64,000 nt of DNA, from assembly GCF_988243305.1 (NCBI RefSeq), contig NZ_OZ547136.1; one strand, given 5' to 3'. The notes beneath the pieces are model-generated. The model made no database searches, was not told where the DNA came from, and saw nothing but the letters and a program-made list of their open reading frames with translations. The stretch's first letter is position 1. Each line of letters begins with the position of its first letter. The position numbers and the translations under genes are program-made. This document shows positions 1,271 through 62,225 of this stretch, piece after piece.

Positions 1271-1360
1271 GTCGTTACCCTTTTTCAGGCAATAGTTGGC
1301 CCTGACCGAAGCGGCCAATTTTGTTTTTGTCGTTATTTACACCGCGGTTTCGCATTCATT

Positions 1361-1549
<189 letters not shown>

Positions 1550-1550
1550 T

Positions 1551-2996
1551 TTACACCCGTCCGTAGCGATCCGCGAAGCGCACCACATCATCCTCTTCGA
1601 GATAAGAGCCGGAGCGCACTTCAATTAAATCGAGCGGAATTTTCCCCGGGTTTTCCAGGCAATGCGTCGCCCCCAGCGGAATATAAATGGACTCGTTTTC
1701 ACCAAGCAGTTTGATATCACCGTCGATAGTGACTTTTGCCGTTCCCGCGACCACCACCCAGTGTTCCGCGCGGTGATGGTGCATCTGTACCGACAAGCCC
1801 TCGCCCGGTTTCACGGTGATGCGTTTCACCTGGTAGCGGTCGCCCGCGTCGATAGAGTCATATTTGCCCCACGGACGATACACTTCGCGATGCACCCGAT
1901 GCTCATGGCGACCATCGGCTTTGATCTGCTCGACCACTTTTTTCACATCCTGCACCGCGTTACGGTCGGCAATCAGCACCGCATCTTTGGTCTGCACCAC
2001 TACCAGATCTTTCACCCCGACGGTGGTGACCAGGCCAGATTCGGCGTACACATAGCTGTTTTCAGTTTTGTGATTAATCACATCACCGTGGCAAACGTTG
2101 CCCTCGGCGGTGTGGGCGCTGATCTCCCATAATGAAGACCAGGAACCGACATCGCTCCAGCCCGCATCCATCGGCACCACAACGGCATCTGCCGTACGTT
2201 CCATGACCGCGTAATCCACCGACTCTTCCGGGCAGGCCAGAAACGCTTCTTCATCCACGCGAATAAAATCGAGATCCGGATCGACGGCGCTCATCGCTTG
2301 TTCACAGGCGTCGAGAATATCCGGGCGATATTTTTTCAGTTCTTCGAGATAGCGTCCGGCGCGGAACAGGAACATGCCGCTGTTCCAGTAATATTCGCCG
2401 CTTGCCACATAGGCCTGGGCGGTTTCCAGATTCGGTTTTTCGACAAACTGCGCCACTTCAAAGGCCACCGTATCCTGCTCACCCGCAGATACTTCACCGC
2501 GACGAATATAGCCATATCCGGTTTCAGGTAGATCCGGCACAATGCCGAAGGTCACCAGCTTGCCCGCTTCGGCATATGGCATGGCATTACGCACGGCGGT
2601 GCGAAAAGCGTCTTCATCGGCAATCACATGATCCGCCGCCAGCACCAGCATTAACGGGTCGCTCTCCGGGCTATGACGTTTTGCCGCCAGCGCCGCCAGC
2701 GCCGCCAGCGCAATGGCAGGTGCAGTGTTACGCCCTGCCGGTTCGAGAATAATGTTCTCGGTGAGTTTGTTCAGTTGGCGCAGCTGTTCCGCGACAATAA
2801 AGCGGTGCTGCTCATTGCAAATCACCACCGGGCTTTCGCACTCTACGCCTTTCAGGCGGCAGATGGTGGTTTGCAGCATGGTGAGATCGCCTTTCAGGCA
2901 TAAAAACTGCTTGGGGTAAAGTACGCGGGAAAGCGGCCATAAGCGGCTACCGGAGCCACCTGCCATCACAACTGGATAGAGTTTCGACTGCGCCAT
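1551..2996 (-). CDS. cpsB: Mannose-1-phosphate guanylyltransferase
   Basis: 481-aa [27 protein letters not shown]... with nucleotidyltransferase N-terminus and cupin-like C-terminus; position between cpsG and wcaI. Confidence 0.95.
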
Positions 2997-2998
2997 AA

Positions 2999-4222
2999 TT
3001 ATCCCCGAATATCATTTATAAATTGACGTAACACGTTCTCTTTATCGAGCGTGCGTTCGGCATATTCACGTGCCACCGTGTTGTGTTTGGGCAGCAGAAG
3101 CGCCTGACGGATCCCCGCCACCAGCGCCTCGACCGATTCCGGTTCTACGCAAACCGCAATTCCCGGAAAGGTTTCGCAAAGCTGCCCCAGTTCTGTGTGG
3201 GCTTCCGCGGTAATCACCGCGTTACCGCCTACCGCCAGAATATTGGTCAGTTTCGACGGCAATACGGCATCTGCCGCGCCGCGTTTTTGCACCACCAGAT
3301 GGCAATCGCCCATCTTCAGCAGTGCGGGTAAAGCGTCATACGATTGCAGCGGGAAAAATTGCATGTTGCGCAGTCCACGCTGCTGCGCCATTTTTTCCAG
3401 CCGCGCTTTGCCGCCGCCCTGCCCGACAATGGCAAAAATCAGCGGTTCATCGCGCAGGAGATCGGCAGCTTCAATAACGTTTTCCAGCCCCTGCTTTTCA
3501 CCAATATTGCCGGAGTAAAGAATGATTTTTTTGTTATCCGGCAGGCCAAGCTGGTTACGAAGAGCGTCAACATCGGCATCTGCAACATGCTGAAAACGGG
3601 CAATTTCCGACCAGTTGGGGAAGAAGATGACGTTTTCCGCCGCCACGCCTTTTTCGATGGCTTTATTCATCATCGAACGCGAAATCGTGGAGACGTTATC
3701 GACGTTATGCAGTCCGCTACGTTCGAACGCCGTTGCCAGCTGTGCCACTTTGCCGCCTTTGCCTTTTCCGGCAAGGCCCAGCCCCAGCATGGCGTCCACT
3801 TCGTAATCCTGAATATGCAGCACGGTACGCGCACCAGAGAGTTTCGCCAGCAGGCGCATTCCCGGCGTGCAAAACAGCGTTGGCACCACGCCAATAATGC
3901 GATCCGGCTTCCAGCGACGTTGCGCCATCAACGGGAAAAAACTGCTGACGGCAAAACTGCCGAGATGTAACAGGCGTTTCAGGGTGCTCGGCTGTTTTGG
4001 CACGTACAGCGGGCAGCGCCACACCGTAGCGGCCCCCTCTTCTCGTTTGTATCGCCAGGCGGAATAGTTCTCGCCCACCTGCCACTGCGGGTAGTAAGGT
4101 GGTGCGGTAATGACCCGCACCTCATGACCTTGTGCCGCCAGCCATTCCACCATCTCGCCGGTGTATTTGCCGATGCCGGTTAACTCCGGCGAGTAGTTAA
4201 TGCCGTAGACCAGTATTTTCAT
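2999..4222 (-). CDS. wcaI: Colanic acid biosynthesis glycosyltransferase
   Basis: 407-aa ORF in the colanic acid gene order; GT-B-type glycosyltransferase. Confidence 0.9.
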
Positions 4223-15897: not shown

Positions 15898-15909
15898 CAC
15901 GCTACCGCC
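15898..15909 (-). promoter_or_regulatory. ops element (RfaH recruitment site) within the JUMPstart leader upstream of wza
   Basis: Minus strand reads GGCGGTAGCGTG (plus strand cacgctaccgcc), matching the ops consensus GGCGGTAGnnTG, about 180 nt upstream of the wza start. Confidence 0.8.
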
Positions 15910-16377
15910 CCTGGCTTTTTAGCTACCAATACACTGATTTAGCTTAATTTTTAAAACCCTCTCAACATACAGTCGTTGATGAGAAAGGGTTATTGCGGAA
16001 ATTAACTTCCGAATATAAGGTGACATTATGGTAATTGAATATTGGCTCTCCAATAATGCAGGAGGAAGTGTTACAGCTAACGGAATAGCAGGCAAGGTAA
16101 CAATTCGGCAATTGGCTATTTTTAAGAATTATATTAAGTGTCATTCAACATGGTTTTTAGGAGTTTCTTTAGGTTGACAATATTTAATATAGTGTCTCCA
16201 CATGCGATATTTCTTAAATAATGTTTTATTATTACCACTTTTAATTCAGGGATAATGTGAGGTTATAAACCTCAAATAATATGAGATAAATAGTGCTGCA
16301 ACATTGCATTTTTGCCCCGATTTATCCATGATCGAATTGTGACATTTGTCATACAACGAATAGGTTTTGTACTTACT

Positions 16378-30905: not shown

Positions 30906-31561
30906 ACTGACGTCCAGCCTTTTGGCGCTTCCAGCACAACTTCCGTTCCCGGCGTGGAGCGGGAAACCGAACGCAGCGAACTGGATAACCAGCTAAACAG
31001 TTCACGGAATTGTAATCCCTGCAGTGGCAAAGGCTGACGAACGCTGATTTGTGCCAAAGTCTTCATATCCGCCCCCTGAACACCGATGGAAAAGAAGGCA
31101 AACTTCTTATCTTCTTCCCCCTGAAACACTTTGTTGGCGGCAGCCTGCCACTCATCGGTTGGAGCGCCATCGGTGATCAGGAAAATCCACGGGCGATAAT
31201 AGGAAATACCATTGGCGCGATACTCACGTTTGCGCTCCTCAACCATATCCAGGGCTTTGGTAATGGCGGCCCCCATTGGTGTATCGCCCTGGGCAAACAG
31301 GATGGGCGGGAAAAAATTAGCGGCGCTGGTAAAGGGTTGTTCCACATGCACCGGGCCGAACGTCACAATACCGAGTTCCACTCTTTTTAAGGCCAGCGGA
31401 TCGGCAAGCAGTTCATCGCGAAAGGTAACCAATCCGGCGTTAAGTTCATTAATAGGTCTACCACTCATCGAACCAGAAACATCCAACAGCAAAATGCAGG
31501 GGCAACGTGGTTCCGGGTTACTGGCAAAATCGCTGGTGGCAAACGTGATTTGTTCGCTCAT
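30902..31561 (-). CDS. yegL: von Willebrand factor type A (vWA) domain protein
   Basis: 219 aa with MIDAS motif DVSGSMSG (DxSxS) and downstream ITDGAPTD. Confidence 0.88.
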
Positions 31562-31742
31562 AAGAAATCCTTTCTTAGAGAATTATTGAGGTCCGGTATC
31601 ATACCGATTGCAATAATGAAATAAGAGCAAACGAAGAAACTTTCAGAATTAGGCCCGGCGGCGCAGAAAATTTTGCTATTCGCCTCGCAAGAACGGAGAG
31701 CCGTCGATTGACACTAAGGGCGGAGTGACATAATTTCAGGAG

Positions 31743-31878
31743 TGAGGGTTAGGGAGAGGTTTCTCCCTCCCCCTGGTGTTCTTAGTAAGCCTGGAAGCTA
31801 ATCACTAAGAGTATCTCCAGTATGATGACGTGCTTCATCATAACCCTTTCCTTATTAAAAGCCCTCTTCTCCGGGAGA
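31743..31878 (+). ncRNA. sibA: Sib antisense sRNA (antitoxin), copy 1
   Basis: Sigma70-like promoter ttgaca (31708-31713) and taattt (31731-31736); transcript fully covers the ibs ORF on the opposite strand; terminator hairpin gccctcttctccgggagagggttt. Ends approximate. Confidence 0.55.
31772..31831 (-). CDS. ibsA: Ibs type I toxin peptide, copy 1 (19 aa, variant)
   Basis: Minus-strand ORF MMKHVIILEILLVISFQAY with SD-like ggaaagg upstream; E and Q replace hydrophobic/Pro positions seen in the other two copies. Confidence 0.55.
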
Positions 31879-32077
31879 GGGTTTCCCGTTTCAGCGTCCC
31901 GCTGAAATCGTCGGCTTACCTCCTTTCGCCCTGAATGCAGTCTATCGCTAACGCGTGAACAAAATAGTTTCCTCTGTGATTATTGCGTAACGACTCGCAA
32001 AGAATATTTGCTGGCAGGATCGCAGACTGAAAAGCCTGCAGATTGACAATCTTATCGTGAAGGCATAATTTCAGGAG

Positions 32078-32215
32078 TGAGGGTAGAGCGGGGTTTCCCC
32101 CGCCCTGGTAGTCTTAGTAAGCCGGGAAGCTTATGACTAAGAGCACCACGATGATGATCCACTTCATCATGACCCTTTCCTTATTTAAGGCCCCTTCCTC
32201 GGGAGGGGCTTTCCC
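32078..32215 (+). ncRNA. Sib antisense sRNA (antitoxin), copy 2
   Basis: Promoter ttgaca (32043-32048) and taattt (32066-32071); terminator hairpin ccccttcctcgggaggggcttt. Ends approximate. Confidence 0.55.
32114..32170 (-). CDS. Ibs type I toxin peptide, copy 2 (18 aa)
   Basis: Minus-strand ORF MMKWIIIVVLLVISFPAY. Confidence 0.6.
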   Translation of the reverse strand: MMKWIIIVVLLVISFPAY

Positions 32216-32404
32216 GTTTCAGCGTCCCGCTGAAATCGTCGGCTTACCTCCTTTCGCCCTGAATGCAGTCTATCGCTAACGCGTGAACAAAATAGTTTCC
32301 TCTGTGATTATTGCGTAACGACTCGCAAAGAATATTTGCTGGCAGGATCGCAGACTGCAAAGCCTGCAGATTGACAATCTTATCGTGAAGGCATAATTTC
32401 AGGA

Positions 32405-32545
32405 GTGAGGGTAGAGCGGGGTTTCCCCCGCCCTGGTAGTCTTAGTATGCTGGGTAGCTAATCACTAAGAGCACCACGATGATGAGTAGCTTCATCATGA
32501 CCCTTTCCTTATTTATGGCCCCTTCCTCGGGAGGGGCTTTCCCGT
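32405..32545 (+). ncRNA. sibB: Sib antisense sRNA (antitoxin), copy 3
   Basis: Promoter ttgaca (32371-32376) and taattt (32394-32399); terminator hairpin ccccttcctcgggaggggcttt. Ends approximate. Confidence 0.55.
32442..32498 (-). CDS. ibsB: Ibs type I toxin peptide, copy 3 (18 aa)
   Basis: Minus-strand ORF MMKLLIIVVLLVISYPAY. Confidence 0.6.
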   Translation of the reverse strand: MMKLLIIVVLLVISYPAY

Positions 32546-32705
32546 TTCAGCGTCCCGCTGAAATCATCGGCTTACCTCCTTTCGCCATGCACGTAGTCTA
32601 TCGCTAACGCGTAGATAAAATAGTTTCATGTATTATTACTGGATGCGTGCTCGCAAATGTGCCCGCCATTCAGACGATTCCCGATAGTGTTTCATAATTC
32701 CTCCA

Positions 32706-32723
32706 TTTTTCTCCCTTATTGGC
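32706..32723 (+). promoter_or_regulatory. BaeR box upstream of mdtA
   Basis: tttttctcccttattggc matches the BaeR consensus TTTTTCTCCATDATTGGC at all but about two positions; about 55 nt upstream of the mdtA start. Confidence 0.7.
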
Positions 32724-32776
32724 TGGCTACACTAGTATCATTCCGCGAAACGTTTCAGGAAGAGAAACTCTTAACG

Positions 32777-34024
32777 ATGAAAGGCAGTTATAAATCCCGT
32801 TGGGTAATCGTAATCGTGGTGGTTATCGCCGCCATCGCCGCATTCTGGTTCTGGCAAGGCCGCAATGACTCCCGGAGTGCAGCCCCAGGGGCGACGAAAC
32901 AAGCGCAGCAATCGCCAGCGGGTGGTCGCCGTGGTATGCGTTCCGGCCCATTAGCCCCGGTTCAGGCGGCGACCGCCGTAGAACAGGCAGTTCCGCGTTA
33001 CCTCACCGGGCTTGGCACCATTACCGCCGCTAATACTGTTACGGTGCGCAGCCGCGTGGACGGTCAACTGATGGCGTTACATTTCCAGGAAGGCCAGCAG
33101 GTCAAAGCAGGCGATTTACTGGCAGAAATTGACCCAAGCCAGTTCAAAGTTGCATTAGCACAAGCCCAGGGCCAACTGGCAAAAGATAAAGCCACGCTTG
33201 CCAACGCCCGCCGTGACCTGGCGCGTTATCAGCAACTGGCAAAAACCAATCTCGTATCTCGTCAGGAACTGGATGCCCAACAAGCGCTGGTCAGTGAAAC
33301 CGAAGGCACCATTAAGGCTGATGAAGCAAGCGTCGCCAGCGCGCAGCTGCAACTCGACTGGAGCCGCATCACCGCACCAGTCGATGGTCGCGTTGGTCTC
33401 AAGCAGGTTGATGTTGGTAACCAAATCTCCAGTGGTGATACCACCGGGATTGTGGTGATCACCCAGACGCATCCTATCGATTTGCTCTTTACCCTGCCGG
33501 AAAGCGATATCGCTACCGTAGTACAGGCGCAAAAAGCCGGAAAACCGCTGGTTGTTGAAGCCTGGGATCGCACCAACTCGAAGAAATTAAGTGAAGGCAC
33601 GCTGTTAAGTCTCGATAACCAAATCGATGCCACTACCGGTACGATTAAAGTGAAAGCACGCTTTAATAATCAGGATGATGCGCTGTTTCCCAATCAGTTT
33701 GTTAACGCGCGTATGTTAGTCGACACCGAACAAAACGCCGTGGTGATCCCCACCGCCGCTCTGCAAATGGGCAACGAAGGCCATTTTGTCTGGGTGCTGA
33801 ATAGCGAAAACAAGGTCAGCAAACATCTGGTGACGCCGGGCATTCAGGACAGTCAGAAAGTGGTGATCCGCGCAGGTATTTCTGCGGGCGACCGCGTAGT
33901 GACGGATGGCATTGATCGCCTGACCGAAGGGGCGAAAGTGGAAGTGGTGGAAGCCCAGAGCGCCACCACTTCGGAAGAGAAAGCCACCAGCCGCGAATAC
34001 GCGAAAAAAGGAGCACGCTCCTGA
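32777..34024 (+). CDS. mdtA: Multidrug efflux RND membrane fusion (periplasmic adaptor) protein
   Basis: Track ORF is 455 aa; trimmed to [16 protein letters not shown]... (415 aa). Confidence 0.92.
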
Positions 34025-45834: not shown

Positions 45835-45864
45835 GCTGCATTTATTAAGGTTATCATCCGTTTC

Positions 45865-45951
45865 GCTGAAAAACATAACCCATAAAATGCTAGCTGTACC
45901 AGGAACCACCTCCTTAGCCTGTGTAATCTCCCTTACACGGGCTTATTTTTT
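45865..45951 (+). ncRNA. cyaR: CyaR (RyeE) Hfq-dependent sRNA
   Basis: gctgaaaaacataacccataaaatgctagctgtaccaggaaccacctccttagcctgtgtaatctcccttacacgggcttatttttt matches my recollection of CyaR, including the terminal hairpin and U-tract. Confidence 0.85.
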
Positions 45952-62094: not shown

Positions 62095-62225
62095 TTGCTC
62101 CTGCCATAACGTGAAGAAGCAATGACCTGGTGGTCCGTGACTTCCCTACGCTGGCATTATCCAGATCAGGTGATACGGGTATTTCTCAGCCTTCACGCAG
62201 AAGGGCACCCCGAGTCGTTTGATTG
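62095..62225 (-). promoter_or_regulatory. TPP (thi-box) riboswitch in the thiM leader
   Basis: Minus strand reads ...ACGACUCGGGGUGCCCUUCUGCGUGAAGGCUGAGAAAUACCCGUAUCACCUGAUCUGGAUAAUGCCAGCGUAGGGAAGUCACGGACCACCAGGUCAUUGC..., containing the conserved CUGAGA and ACCUGAUCUGGAUAAUGCCAGCG thi-box elements. Confidence 0.9.

What the first reader, a model, noticed from the sequence alone, without database searches (positions are those of the whole stretch)
31690..32560. Three tandem Sib/Ibs type I toxin-antitoxin units between yegL and mdtA
Three ~330-bp repeat units each carry a consensus-like sigma70 promoter (ttgaca-N17-taattt at 31708, 32043, 32371) driving a plus-strand sRNA that ends in a GC hairpin plus U-run. 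Each sRNA is fully antisense to a minus-strand 18-19-codon ORF encoding an MMK-hydrophobic peptide (MMKHVIILEILLVISFQAY, MMKWIIIVVLLVISFPAY, MMKLLIIVVLLVISYPAY). This is the Sib antisense RNA / Ibs membrane-toxin architecture. As I recall, the K-12 reference has two units (sibA/ibsA, sibB/ibsB) at this locus, so a third unit would be a copy-number expansion; the middle copy (W at position 4) may be a recombinant or novel variant.
Basis: partly seen in the sequence, partly recalled or inferred. Interest (0 to 1): 0.6.

Follow-up and report, generated by a model that had tools for sequence, protein, structure and literature searches.

The report
Three ordinary Sib/Ibs toxin-antitoxin units
The yegL–mdtA gap holds three tandem copies of the well-known Sib antisense RNA / Ibs membrane-toxin module, an arrangement that about four in ten complete E. 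coli genomes share and that is already annotated, so it is real but ordinary.

Summary
Three Rfam SIB_RNA matches (142–146 bits; gathering score 56) lie at the stated places. The flanking genes are yegL and mdtA.

The Sib/Ibs type I toxin-antitoxin reading is supported. The "copy-number expansion" reading is not.
- K-12 does have two units here.
- In an even-step sample of 60 of 5,422 complete E. coli records, about 26 have three units, about 25 two, 6 four and 1–2 one.
- O157:H7, 042 and W have three units.

The "W" peptide is not novel.
- It is RefSeq WP_012767741.1.
- Its DNA core is at least 95% identical in 2,059 of 5,426 genomes.
- It also sits next to mdtA in Escherichia whittamii.

K-12's sibB/ibsB looks like the recombinant instead. 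It matches unit 2 up to window position 32135 and unit 3 from 32158 onward. That fits a 328-bp deletion by unequal crossing-over.

Units 2 and 3 differ at only 10 Sib positions. All 10 lie in the published target-recognition elements.

The one uncommon feature is an IbsA V9E allele, found in 15 of 4,490 records. Strain KE55 carries the same three peptides.

Verdict: already known, low interest.

The parts
31562..32776 (.). yegL–mdtA intergenic region that holds the whole array. The yegL start codon is at 31561 on the minus strand and the mdtA ATG is at 32777 on the plus strand.
   Evidence: Coordinates transferred from the annotated O157:H7 TR01 locus L002. K-12 context and the best-matching strain.
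31708..31736 (+). Sib unit 1 promoter: -35 TTGACA (31708–31713), a 17-nt spacer, then -10 TAATTT (31731–31736).
   Evidence: Sequence. Conserved in all three units. Not called by the consensus scan. The K-12 sibA 5' end maps 8 nt downstream of the -10 box.
31744..31887 (+). Sib unit 1 RNA, the SibA orthologue (144 nt). It is 98% identical to K-12 SibA. The terminator hairpin is at about 31859–31884.
   Evidence: Ends transferred from the K-12 sibA annotation. Rfam hit. Fold z = -4.1. Identity.
31782..31841 (-). ibs unit 1 ORF, the ibsA V9E allele: MMKHVIILEILLVISFQAY plus stop. The SD sequence AAGGAAAGGG is at 31853→31844.
   Evidence: Identical to WP_072146903.1 of strain KE55.
32043..32071 (+). 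Sib unit 2 promoter: TTGACA at 32043–32048 and TAATTT at 32066–32071.
32079..32214 (+). Sib unit 2 RNA (about 136 nt). It is 96% identical to K-12 SibB. The terminator hairpin is at about 32187–32212.
   Evidence: Ends transferred from the K-12 sibB annotation. Rfam hit. Fold z = -4.4. Identity.
32114..32170 (-). ibs unit 2 ORF: MMKWIIIVVLLVISFPAY plus stop. This equals WP_012767741.1.
   Evidence: Population frequency.
32371..32399 (+). Sib unit 3 promoter: TTGACA at 32371–32376 and TAATTT at 32394–32399.
32407..32542 (+). Sib unit 3 RNA (about 136 nt). It is 96% identical to K-12 SibB. The terminator hairpin is at about 32517–32538.
32442..32498 (-). ibs unit 3 ORF: MMKLLIIVVLLVISYPAY plus stop. 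This equals WP_001386901.1.
31888..32042 (.). Repeated spacer between units 1 and 2. A second copy lies at 32215–32370 and a partial third at 32543 to about 32657. On the minus strand it carries the ibs 5' UTR and presumably the ibs promoter. On the plus strand it carries a second small hairpin, CAGCG-TCC-CGCTG.
   Evidence: Repeat families D1 and D2. A block conserved with K-12 ibsA–E upstream regions. No ibs promoter was located by consensus.

Best explanation
The region is a tandem array of three Sib/Ibs type I toxin-antitoxin modules. It is the same polymorphic array that K-12 carries as sibA/ibsA plus sibB/ibsB.

How it works (from published work, not tested here):
- Each unit makes a roughly 136–144-nt Sib RNA on the plus strand from its own promoter.
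- The opposite strand makes a short ibs mRNA encoding an 18–19-residue hydrophobic peptide.
- Sib pairs with its own ibs mRNA. Pairing starts through TRD1 (the P5 loop, against the ORF) and through TRD2 with the P6 loop (against the translation-initiation region).
- This blocks translation and leads to RNase III-dependent decay.
- If Ibs is made, it inserts in the inner membrane and lowers membrane potential and ATP.

How the array evolves (inferred here): it changes length by unequal homologous recombination between the 328-bp units. The three-unit form is an old, common allele. K-12's two-unit form is most simply a deletion derivative.
For: Shown here:
- Three full-length RF00113 hits at 142–146 bits against a gathering score of 56.
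- All three RNAs fold into the family shape: a P1 closing stem, three internal hairpins, a single-stranded UCCUUAUU segment and a terminator. Fold z-scores are -3.3 to -4.4.
- The ORFs lie wholly inside the antisense RNAs and have SD sequences.
- The peptides are identical to RefSeq proteins named 'type I toxin-antitoxin system Ibs family toxin'.
- They are 1–2 residues from K-12 IbsA or IbsB.
- The locus is syntenic with K-12.
- Arrays of 1, 2, 3 and 4 units exist at the same place.
- All 10 Sib2/Sib3 differences fall in TRD1 (5), the P6 loop (4) and TRD2 (1).
- K-12 sibB is unit-2-like at 4 of 5 informative sites up to 32135. It is unit-3-like at 26 of 27 sites from 32158 on.
- Unit-2-type and unit-3-type peptides occur next to mdtA in E. 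whittamii and in Escherichia sp. E1V33.

From the literature:
- Cognate repression through TRD1 and TRD2 (PMC2943612).
- Translation block and RNase III involvement (PMC4147584).
- Membrane depolarisation by IbsC (PMC8309996).
- ATP-synthase inhibition by Salmonella IbsA (bioRxiv 10.1101/2025.05.26.656083).
Against: - Nothing here shows expression or toxicity in this strain.
- The generic promoter and terminator scans do not call the Sib signals.
- No ibs promoter was located.
- IbsA carries Glu at position 9, inside the hydrophobic core, so unit 1 may encode a weakened toxin.
- The direction of the K-12 event (deletion rather than duplication followed by divergence) rests on parsimony and three outgroup loci, not on a phylogeny.
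- The copy-number frequencies come from a sample of 60 records.
- An attempt at a full count through junction probes under-counted.
Confidence: 0.95

Rival explanations
1. The third unit is a recent, strain-specific duplication, that is, a copy-number expansion relative to a two-unit ancestral state like K-12. The W-bearing middle copy would then be a new or recombinant variant.
For: K-12 MG1655 has only sibA/ibsA and sibB/ibsB here. Units 2 and 3 are 93% identical as RNAs, and 96% identical over 300 bp.
Against: - About 43% of sampled complete E. coli genomes have three units, and 6 of 60 have four.
- The W-type unit is at least 95% identical in 2,059 of 5,426 genomes.
- It is present in E. 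whittamii.
- Window 31593–32261 is 100% identical to strain KE55.
- K-12 sibB is the mosaic of units 2 and 3, with a single switch point.
Confidence: 0.03
2. One or more units are decaying remnants. In particular, unit 1 (IbsA V9E) may encode a non-toxic peptide, so that only SibA or nothing is functional there.
For: - A V9E change puts a charged residue in the middle of the transmembrane helix.
- Published mutagenesis says IbsC needs its central hydrophobic residues and at least 10 hydrophobic residues for toxicity (PMC8309996).
- The allele is rare: 15 of 4,490 records.
- Even wild-type ibsA is reported to be tolerated without SibA in K-12 (PMC2943612).
- Other strains carry a truncated ibsA (L006).
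Against: - The promoter -35 box, SD, start codon, ORF length, Leu11 and terminator are all intact.
- SibA differs from K-12 at only two positions.
- Units 2 and 3 show no defects.
- No experiment addresses V9E.
Confidence: 0.35
3. The repeats are merely structural intergenic repeats (the historical 'QUAD' repeats). On this view the RNAs and mini-ORFs have no toxin-antitoxin role in vivo.
For: No physiological phenotype has been established for chromosomal E. coli ibs/sib at native expression levels. Copy number varies freely from 1 to 4, which suggests that losing a unit costs little.
Against: - The family has been characterised experimentally in K-12 (PMC2943612, PMC4147584, PMC8309996).
- Salmonella ibsA has a reported virulence phenotype.
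- Sib2 and Sib3 differ only in the specificity elements, while the ORFs stay intact. That is not what neutral repeats would show.
Confidence: 0.02

Closest known systems
sibA/ibsA – sibB/ibsB locus of E. coli K-12 MG1655 (b4436/b4667, b4437/b4668)
   Same: - Same position between yegL and mdtA, and same orientation.
- Unit 1 is 98% identical to SibA.
- Units 2 and 3 are each 96% identical to SibB.
- The peptides differ by 1–2 residues from IbsA or IbsB.
   Different: - K-12 has two units and the window has three.
- K-12 sibB combines the unit-2 TRD1 with the unit-3 P6 loop and TRD2.
- The window's IbsA has V9E.
- The window's units 2 and 3 have CATAAT where K-12 sibB has CATACT.
Three-unit yegL–mdtA arrays annotated in other E. 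coli (O157:H7 TR01, 042, W, KE55, O169:H41 Res13-Lact-PER13-34)
   Same: Same three-unit architecture and spacing. KE55 encodes the identical three peptides. O169:H41 has the same W and Y peptides.
   Different: Only point differences: 1.5–2% over the 1.2-kb region. Most of these strains have wild-type IbsA, and unit 3 of O157:H7 TR01 (L002) encodes MMKILII….
sibD/ibsD – sibE/ibsE tandem pair and single sibC/ibsC of K-12
   Same: Same RNA family and the same peptide family, MM(K/R)…(F/Y)xAY. These loci also show tandem duplication within one intergenic region.
   Different: Different loci. Sib identity to the window units is only 60–78%. The peptides are 19 aa with an LVIIL core.
Other tandemly repeated type I TA loci of E. 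coli (Ldr/Rdl long direct repeats; ZorO/OrzO–ZorP/OrzP)
   Same: Small hydrophobic toxin, antisense RNA, tandem duplication in one intergenic region, and strain-to-strain copy variation (PMC2887945).
   Different: Unrelated sequences. In those systems the antitoxin overlaps the 5' UTR rather than the whole ORF.

Membership tests
Sib antitoxin RNA (Rfam RF00113 SIB_RNA) | Matches the family covariance model above its gathering score | tested here: met
   Three full-length hits of 141.6–145.9 bits against a gathering score of 56.
Sib antitoxin RNA (Rfam RF00113 SIB_RNA) | RNA of about 140 nt with a P1 closing stem, internal hairpins, a single-stranded J1/7 segment and an intrinsic terminator | tested here: met
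   Minimum-free-energy folds of all three units show this shape, with z = -3.3 to -4.4. This is prediction only.
Sib antitoxin RNA (Rfam RF00113 SIB_RNA) | Encoded fully antisense to an ibs ORF and its ribosome-binding site | tested here: met
   Sib 31744–31887, 32079–32214 and 32407–32542 contain ibs 31782–31841, 32114–32170 and 32442–32498 together with their SD sequences.
Sib antitoxin RNA (Rfam RF00113 SIB_RNA) | Transcribed from its own promoter as an abundant RNA | tested here: inconclusive
   The -35 TTGACA is perfect and the -10 is TAATTT at 17 nt, conserved in all units. The generic scan does not call it. There are no expression data.
Sib antitoxin RNA (Rfam RF00113 SIB_RNA) | Represses its cognate ibs through TRD1 and TRD2 | not testable with these tools
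   Only the mapping could be done. Sib2 and Sib3 differ exclusively at TRD1, the P6 loop and TRD2 (using the coordinates of PMC2943612).
Ibs type I toxin | Hydrophobic peptide of 18–19 residues that starts MM(K/R) and ends (F/Y/W)-x-(A/T)-Y | tested here: met
   Translations compared with K-12 IbsA–E.
Ibs type I toxin | Identical or near-identical to proteins curated as Ibs | tested here: met
   Identical to WP_072146903.1, WP_012767741.1 and WP_001386901.1, all named Ibs family toxin by PGAP.
Ibs type I toxin | Match to a protein-family HMM (Pfam or NCBIfam Ibs model) | not testable with these tools
   The peptides are shorter than the 20–30-aa minimum of the tools (error).
Ibs type I toxin | Toxic (membrane depolarisation or growth arrest) when overproduced | not testable with these tools
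   Known for K-12 IbsC and Salmonella IbsA from papers. Untested for these alleles. V9E in unit 1 is a reason for doubt.
Claimed novelty: copy-number expansion or novel middle variant | Three units, or the W variant, absent or rare in other genomes | tested here: not met
   About 26 of 60 systematically sampled records have three units. The W-type core is at least 95% identical in 2,059 of 5,426 genomes. It is also present in E. whittamii.

The most novel reading that the evidence does not exclude
The yegL–mdtA array may behave as a recombination-safe cassette array. Sib and ibs are read from the same DNA, so any unequal crossover between units gives a hybrid that is automatically self-cognate. 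Such a hybrid carries a new combination of specificity patches (TRD1 from one parent, P6 loop and TRD2 from the other). K-12's textbook sibB/ibsB would be one such hybrid. Selection would keep neighbouring units different only at those patches. Separately, the rare IbsA V9E allele could be a naturally disarmed toxin whose SibA is retained.
Probability: 0.5. Interest if true: 0.25.

Novelty: already known. Interest (0 to 1): 0.1.

Why it matters
It matters little. The Sib/Ibs family, its tandem organisation and its strain-to-strain variation in copy number are published. Fozo et al. 2010 (PMC2887945) list 3 to 7 Ibs genes per Escherichia/Shigella genome. The three genes here are routinely annotated by PGAP.

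Two small points may be useful:
- K-12's sibB/ibsB, the version used in experiments, looks like a deletion hybrid of two units that about 40% of E. coli keep separate.
- Adjacent units differ only in the experimentally defined recognition elements. That makes this locus a convenient natural test of Sib/ibs cross-talk.

Tried and rejected
For the same reason no Pfam, NCBIfam or PADLOC scan was possible.
- Fozo et al. 2008 (PMC2597788, PubMed 18710431) and Fozo 2012 (doi 10.4161/rna.22568) are not held. I could not check whether they already describe the three-unit form or the hybrid nature of sibB.
- The generic promoter/terminator scan did not call the Sib signals or any ibs promoter. I could not place the ibs promoter by eye in the alignment with K-12 ibsA–E upstream regions, so I left it as inferred.
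- I tried counting internal junctions with an 80-nt probe to get the full copy-number distribution. It under-counts. For example, strain 1070/13 gave only one junction place, whereas its derivative '1070/13 pAA-' has a three-unit span. I did not use it as a distribution.
- A 101-nt probe could not separate V9E from wild type, because one mismatch is still 99%. I repeated the search with 80 nt.
- The genome-contig scan with the Sib 5' motif returned only three Escherichia loci plus two chance hits in Chloroflexi MAGs. It therefore gave outgroups but no taxonomic census, and it did not identify the source genome.
- The idea that the window was artificially mutated (best identity only about 98.2% over 24 kb) was rejected. 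The differences look like natural polymorphism, and 31593–32261 is identical to KE55.

Full report
**Observation**

Window 31562–32776 is the intergenic region between yegL (minus strand, start codon at 31561) and mdtA (plus strand, ATG at 32777). I transferred these coordinates from annotated homologous loci.

- The region contains three direct repeat units spaced 328–335 bp apart.
- A scan against Rfam gives three full-length SIB_RNA (RF00113) matches on the plus strand: 31708–31856, 32043–32185 and 32371–32513. They score 141.6–145.9 bits against a gathering score of 56, with E about 1e-30.
- No other Sib copy is present in the 64-kb window.
Each follows AAGGAAAGGG:
  - 31841→31782: MMKHVIILEILLVISFQAY
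  - 32170→32114: MMKWIIIVVLLVISFPAY
  - 32498→32442: MMKLLIIVVLLVISYPAY

The RF00113 model begins at the -35 box and ends before the terminator. The real RNA ends are therefore better taken from the K-12 annotation of sibA and sibB. That gives Sib1 31744–31887, Sib2 32079–32214 and Sib3 32407–32542.

All three fold into the family architecture. Each has a closing stem, three internal hairpins, a single-stranded UCCUUAUU segment and a 9–11-bp GC-rich terminator hairpin. The z-scores are -3.3 to -4.4 against shuffles.

- The -35 box is a perfect TTGACA, but the -10 at 17 nt is TAATTT, which matches the consensus at 3 of 6 positions (T1, A2, T6).
- The terminator tail is UUUCCCGU.

A generic consensus scan calls neither signal. 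The K-12 sibA 5' end lies 8 nt after TAATTT, which fits that hexamer being the -10.

**What it is**

The three units are Sib/Ibs type I toxin-antitoxin modules.

- Unit 1 is the SibA/IbsA orthologue. The RNA is 98% identical to K-12 SibA.
- Units 2 and 3 are both SibB-like, each 96% identical to K-12 SibB.
- The three peptides are identical to RefSeq proteins that PGAP names 'type I toxin-antitoxin system Ibs family toxin': WP_072146903.1, WP_012767741.1 and WP_001386901.1.

The mechanism comes from the literature, not from this analysis:
- Sib RNAs repress only their cognate ibs mRNA. They act through TRD1 (SibC +46 to +68, the P5 loop, pairing within the ORF) and TRD2 (+99 to +115, pairing with the translation-initiation region). 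TRD2 is helped by the P6 loop (PMC2943612).
- Pairing blocks translation, and the duplex appears to be an RNase III substrate (PMC4147584).
- IbsC depolarises the membrane within minutes and needs its central hydrophobic residues (PMC8309996).
- A 2025 preprint reports that Salmonella IbsA binds the a and b subunits of Fo and lowers ATP. It requires residue 3 and Leu11.
- All three window peptides have Lys3 and Leu11.

**Copy number**

K-12 MG1655 does have only sibA/ibsA and sibB/ibsB here. But the 1,221-bp query found the locus in 5,419 of 5,426 complete E. coli genomes. The best hits, including O157:H7, all have three annotated ibs genes.

I took an even-step sample of 60 records down the whole ranking. 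Record span and annotation gave these counts:

| Units at the locus | Records of 60 | Examples |
|---|---|---|
| Three | about 26 | O157:H7, 042, W |
| Two | about 25 | K-12-like and B2-type, such as UPEC 536 |
| Four | 6 | |
| One | 1–2 | |

I fetched examples of each state and confirmed the unit numbers with Rfam.

Three units is therefore one of the two commonest states, not an expansion. Published tables already show Ibs counts of 3 to 7 per Escherichia/Shigella genome (PMC2887945).

An attempt to get a full distribution by counting internal junctions under-counted diverged junctions. I did not use it.

**The 'W' middle copy**

- An 80-nt probe over ibs2 is exact in 839 genomes and 95–99% identical in another 1,220, out of 5,426. 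Non-W units score 93.8% or less.
- The same peptide sits next to mdtA in Escherichia whittamii.
- Escherichia sp. E1V33 has two units, including the exact unit-3 peptide. E. albertii has one unit.

Both unit types therefore seem to predate the diversification of E. coli.

**Which unit is the recombinant**

I used sites where unit 2 and unit 3 differ consistently in both the window and O157:H7.

- The K-12 sibB unit is unit-2-like at 4 of 5 sites up to window 32135. The fifth site is private to K-12.
- It is unit-3-like at 26 of 27 sites from 32158 onward.
- There is a single switch, inside a 22-nt stretch that is identical in both units.

This is the product expected from one unequal crossover between units 2 and 3 that deletes 328 bp. 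The alternative is duplication of a K-12-like unit followed by nine patch substitutions. That is less parsimonious given the outgroup data, but it has not been excluded by a phylogeny.

Strain 2002-3211 carries three identical K-12-type units after a truncated ibsA. The array therefore also re-expands.

**Specificity patches**

Sib2 and Sib3 differ at 10 of about 136 positions. After alignment to SibC, all ten fall in TRD1 (5), the P6 loop (4) or TRD2 (1), and none falls elsewhere.

This matches the statement of Han et al. that the recognition domains sit in the variable regions. It suggests that the rest of the unit is homogenised while the recognition patches are kept distinct.

Toxin mRNA and antitoxin are read from the same DNA, so any hybrid unit is self-cognate by construction. 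That is an inference.

**What is unusual here**

- IbsA carries V9E (GAG at 31817–31815). The exact 80-nt allele occurs in 15 of 4,490 records that have an ibsA-type unit.
- Strain KE55 has the same trio of peptides. It is 100% identical to the window from 31593 to 32261.
- A glutamate in the hydrophobic core may weaken the toxin. This is untested.
- The window also has CATAAT at the -10 region of units 2 and 3, where K-12 sibB and O157:H7 have CATACT (in KE55 only unit 3 differs).
- Over 24 kb the window is at best 98.2% identical to any complete E. coli genome. The differences look like natural polymorphism. I did not identify the source strain.

**Verdict**

The novelty claim is wrong: this is a known, annotated, common allele of a polymorphic array. 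The hybrid origin of K-12 sibB/ibsB and the confinement of inter-unit differences to the recognition elements are tidy but minor. I could not check them against Fozo et al. 2008 or Fozo 2012, which are not held.

Noticed in passing
window 31815–31817 (minus-strand codon 9 of ibsA) and 31764: IbsA has Glu instead of Val at position 9, inside the hydrophobic helix. SibA also has a C→T change in the loop of its first internal hairpin (the second helix overall, after the closing P1 stem). The exact 80-nt allele is in only 15 of 4,490 E. coli records. Strain KE55 carries both changes. It may be an attenuated toxin.
   Followed up: partly
window 32068 and 32396: Units 2 and 3 have CATAATTT at the Sib -10 region, where K-12 sibB and O157:H7 have CATACTTT (in KE55 only unit 3 differs). 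This is a promoter polymorphism that moves the hexamer toward consensus.
   Followed up: no
window 32120–32135, 32158–32161, 32188 versus 32448–32463, 32486–32489, 32516: All ten differences between Sib2 and Sib3 fall in the published recognition elements TRD1, P6 loop and TRD2. The other roughly 126 positions are identical.
   Followed up: yes
L001 (K-12) 1647–1782 compared with window units 2 and 3: K-12 sibB/ibsB is a clean mosaic. It is unit-2-like up to window 32135 and unit-3-like from 32158, as expected from an unequal-crossover deletion.
   Followed up: yes
L006 (E. coli 2002-3211) 832–1865: This is a four-unit array with a truncated ibsA (MMKHVIILVILLVISF*) followed by three identical K-12-type ibsB units. 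It is evidence of re-expansion by recombination.
   Followed up: partly
window 31862–31881 (minus strand): The complement of the Sib1 terminator forms a hairpin followed by CUUUUAAUAAGGAAAGGG in the ibs1 5' UTR, immediately before the SD. The scan flags it as terminator-like on the minus strand. Whether it attenuates or structures the ibs mRNA is unknown.
   Followed up: no
window 32706–32723: TTTTTCTCCCTTATTGGC lies 54 nt upstream of the mdtA ATG. It is the only match in the window, with zero expected by chance. It fits the BaeR-box consensus as I recall it from Nishino et al. 2005. Sib3 is co-directional with mdtA and ends about 165 nt upstream of this box.
   Followed up: partly
window 31708–31856 and the other two Rfam hits: The RF00113 model starts at the -35 promoter box and stops before the terminator. 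Rfam hit coordinates are therefore shifted about 36 nt upstream of the RNA as annotated in K-12.
   Followed up: yes
window 45863–45948 (+), 62126–62222 (-), 15898–15936 (-), 1275–1324 (-), 1411–1481 (+): Other Rfam hits: CyaR/RyeE, TPP riboswitch, JUMPstart, algC RNA and naRNA4. CyaR, the TPP riboswitch and JUMPstart lie where I recall them in the E. coli wca–thiM region; the positions were not checked against an annotated record, since PGAP lists no RNA features.
   Followed up: no
window 20000–44000: The best identity to any of 5,426 complete E. coli genomes is only 98.2% over 24 kb. yegL and pphC are especially divergent. The source is probably a lineage poorly represented among complete E. 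coli genomes, or a Shigella. It was not identified.
   Followed up: partly
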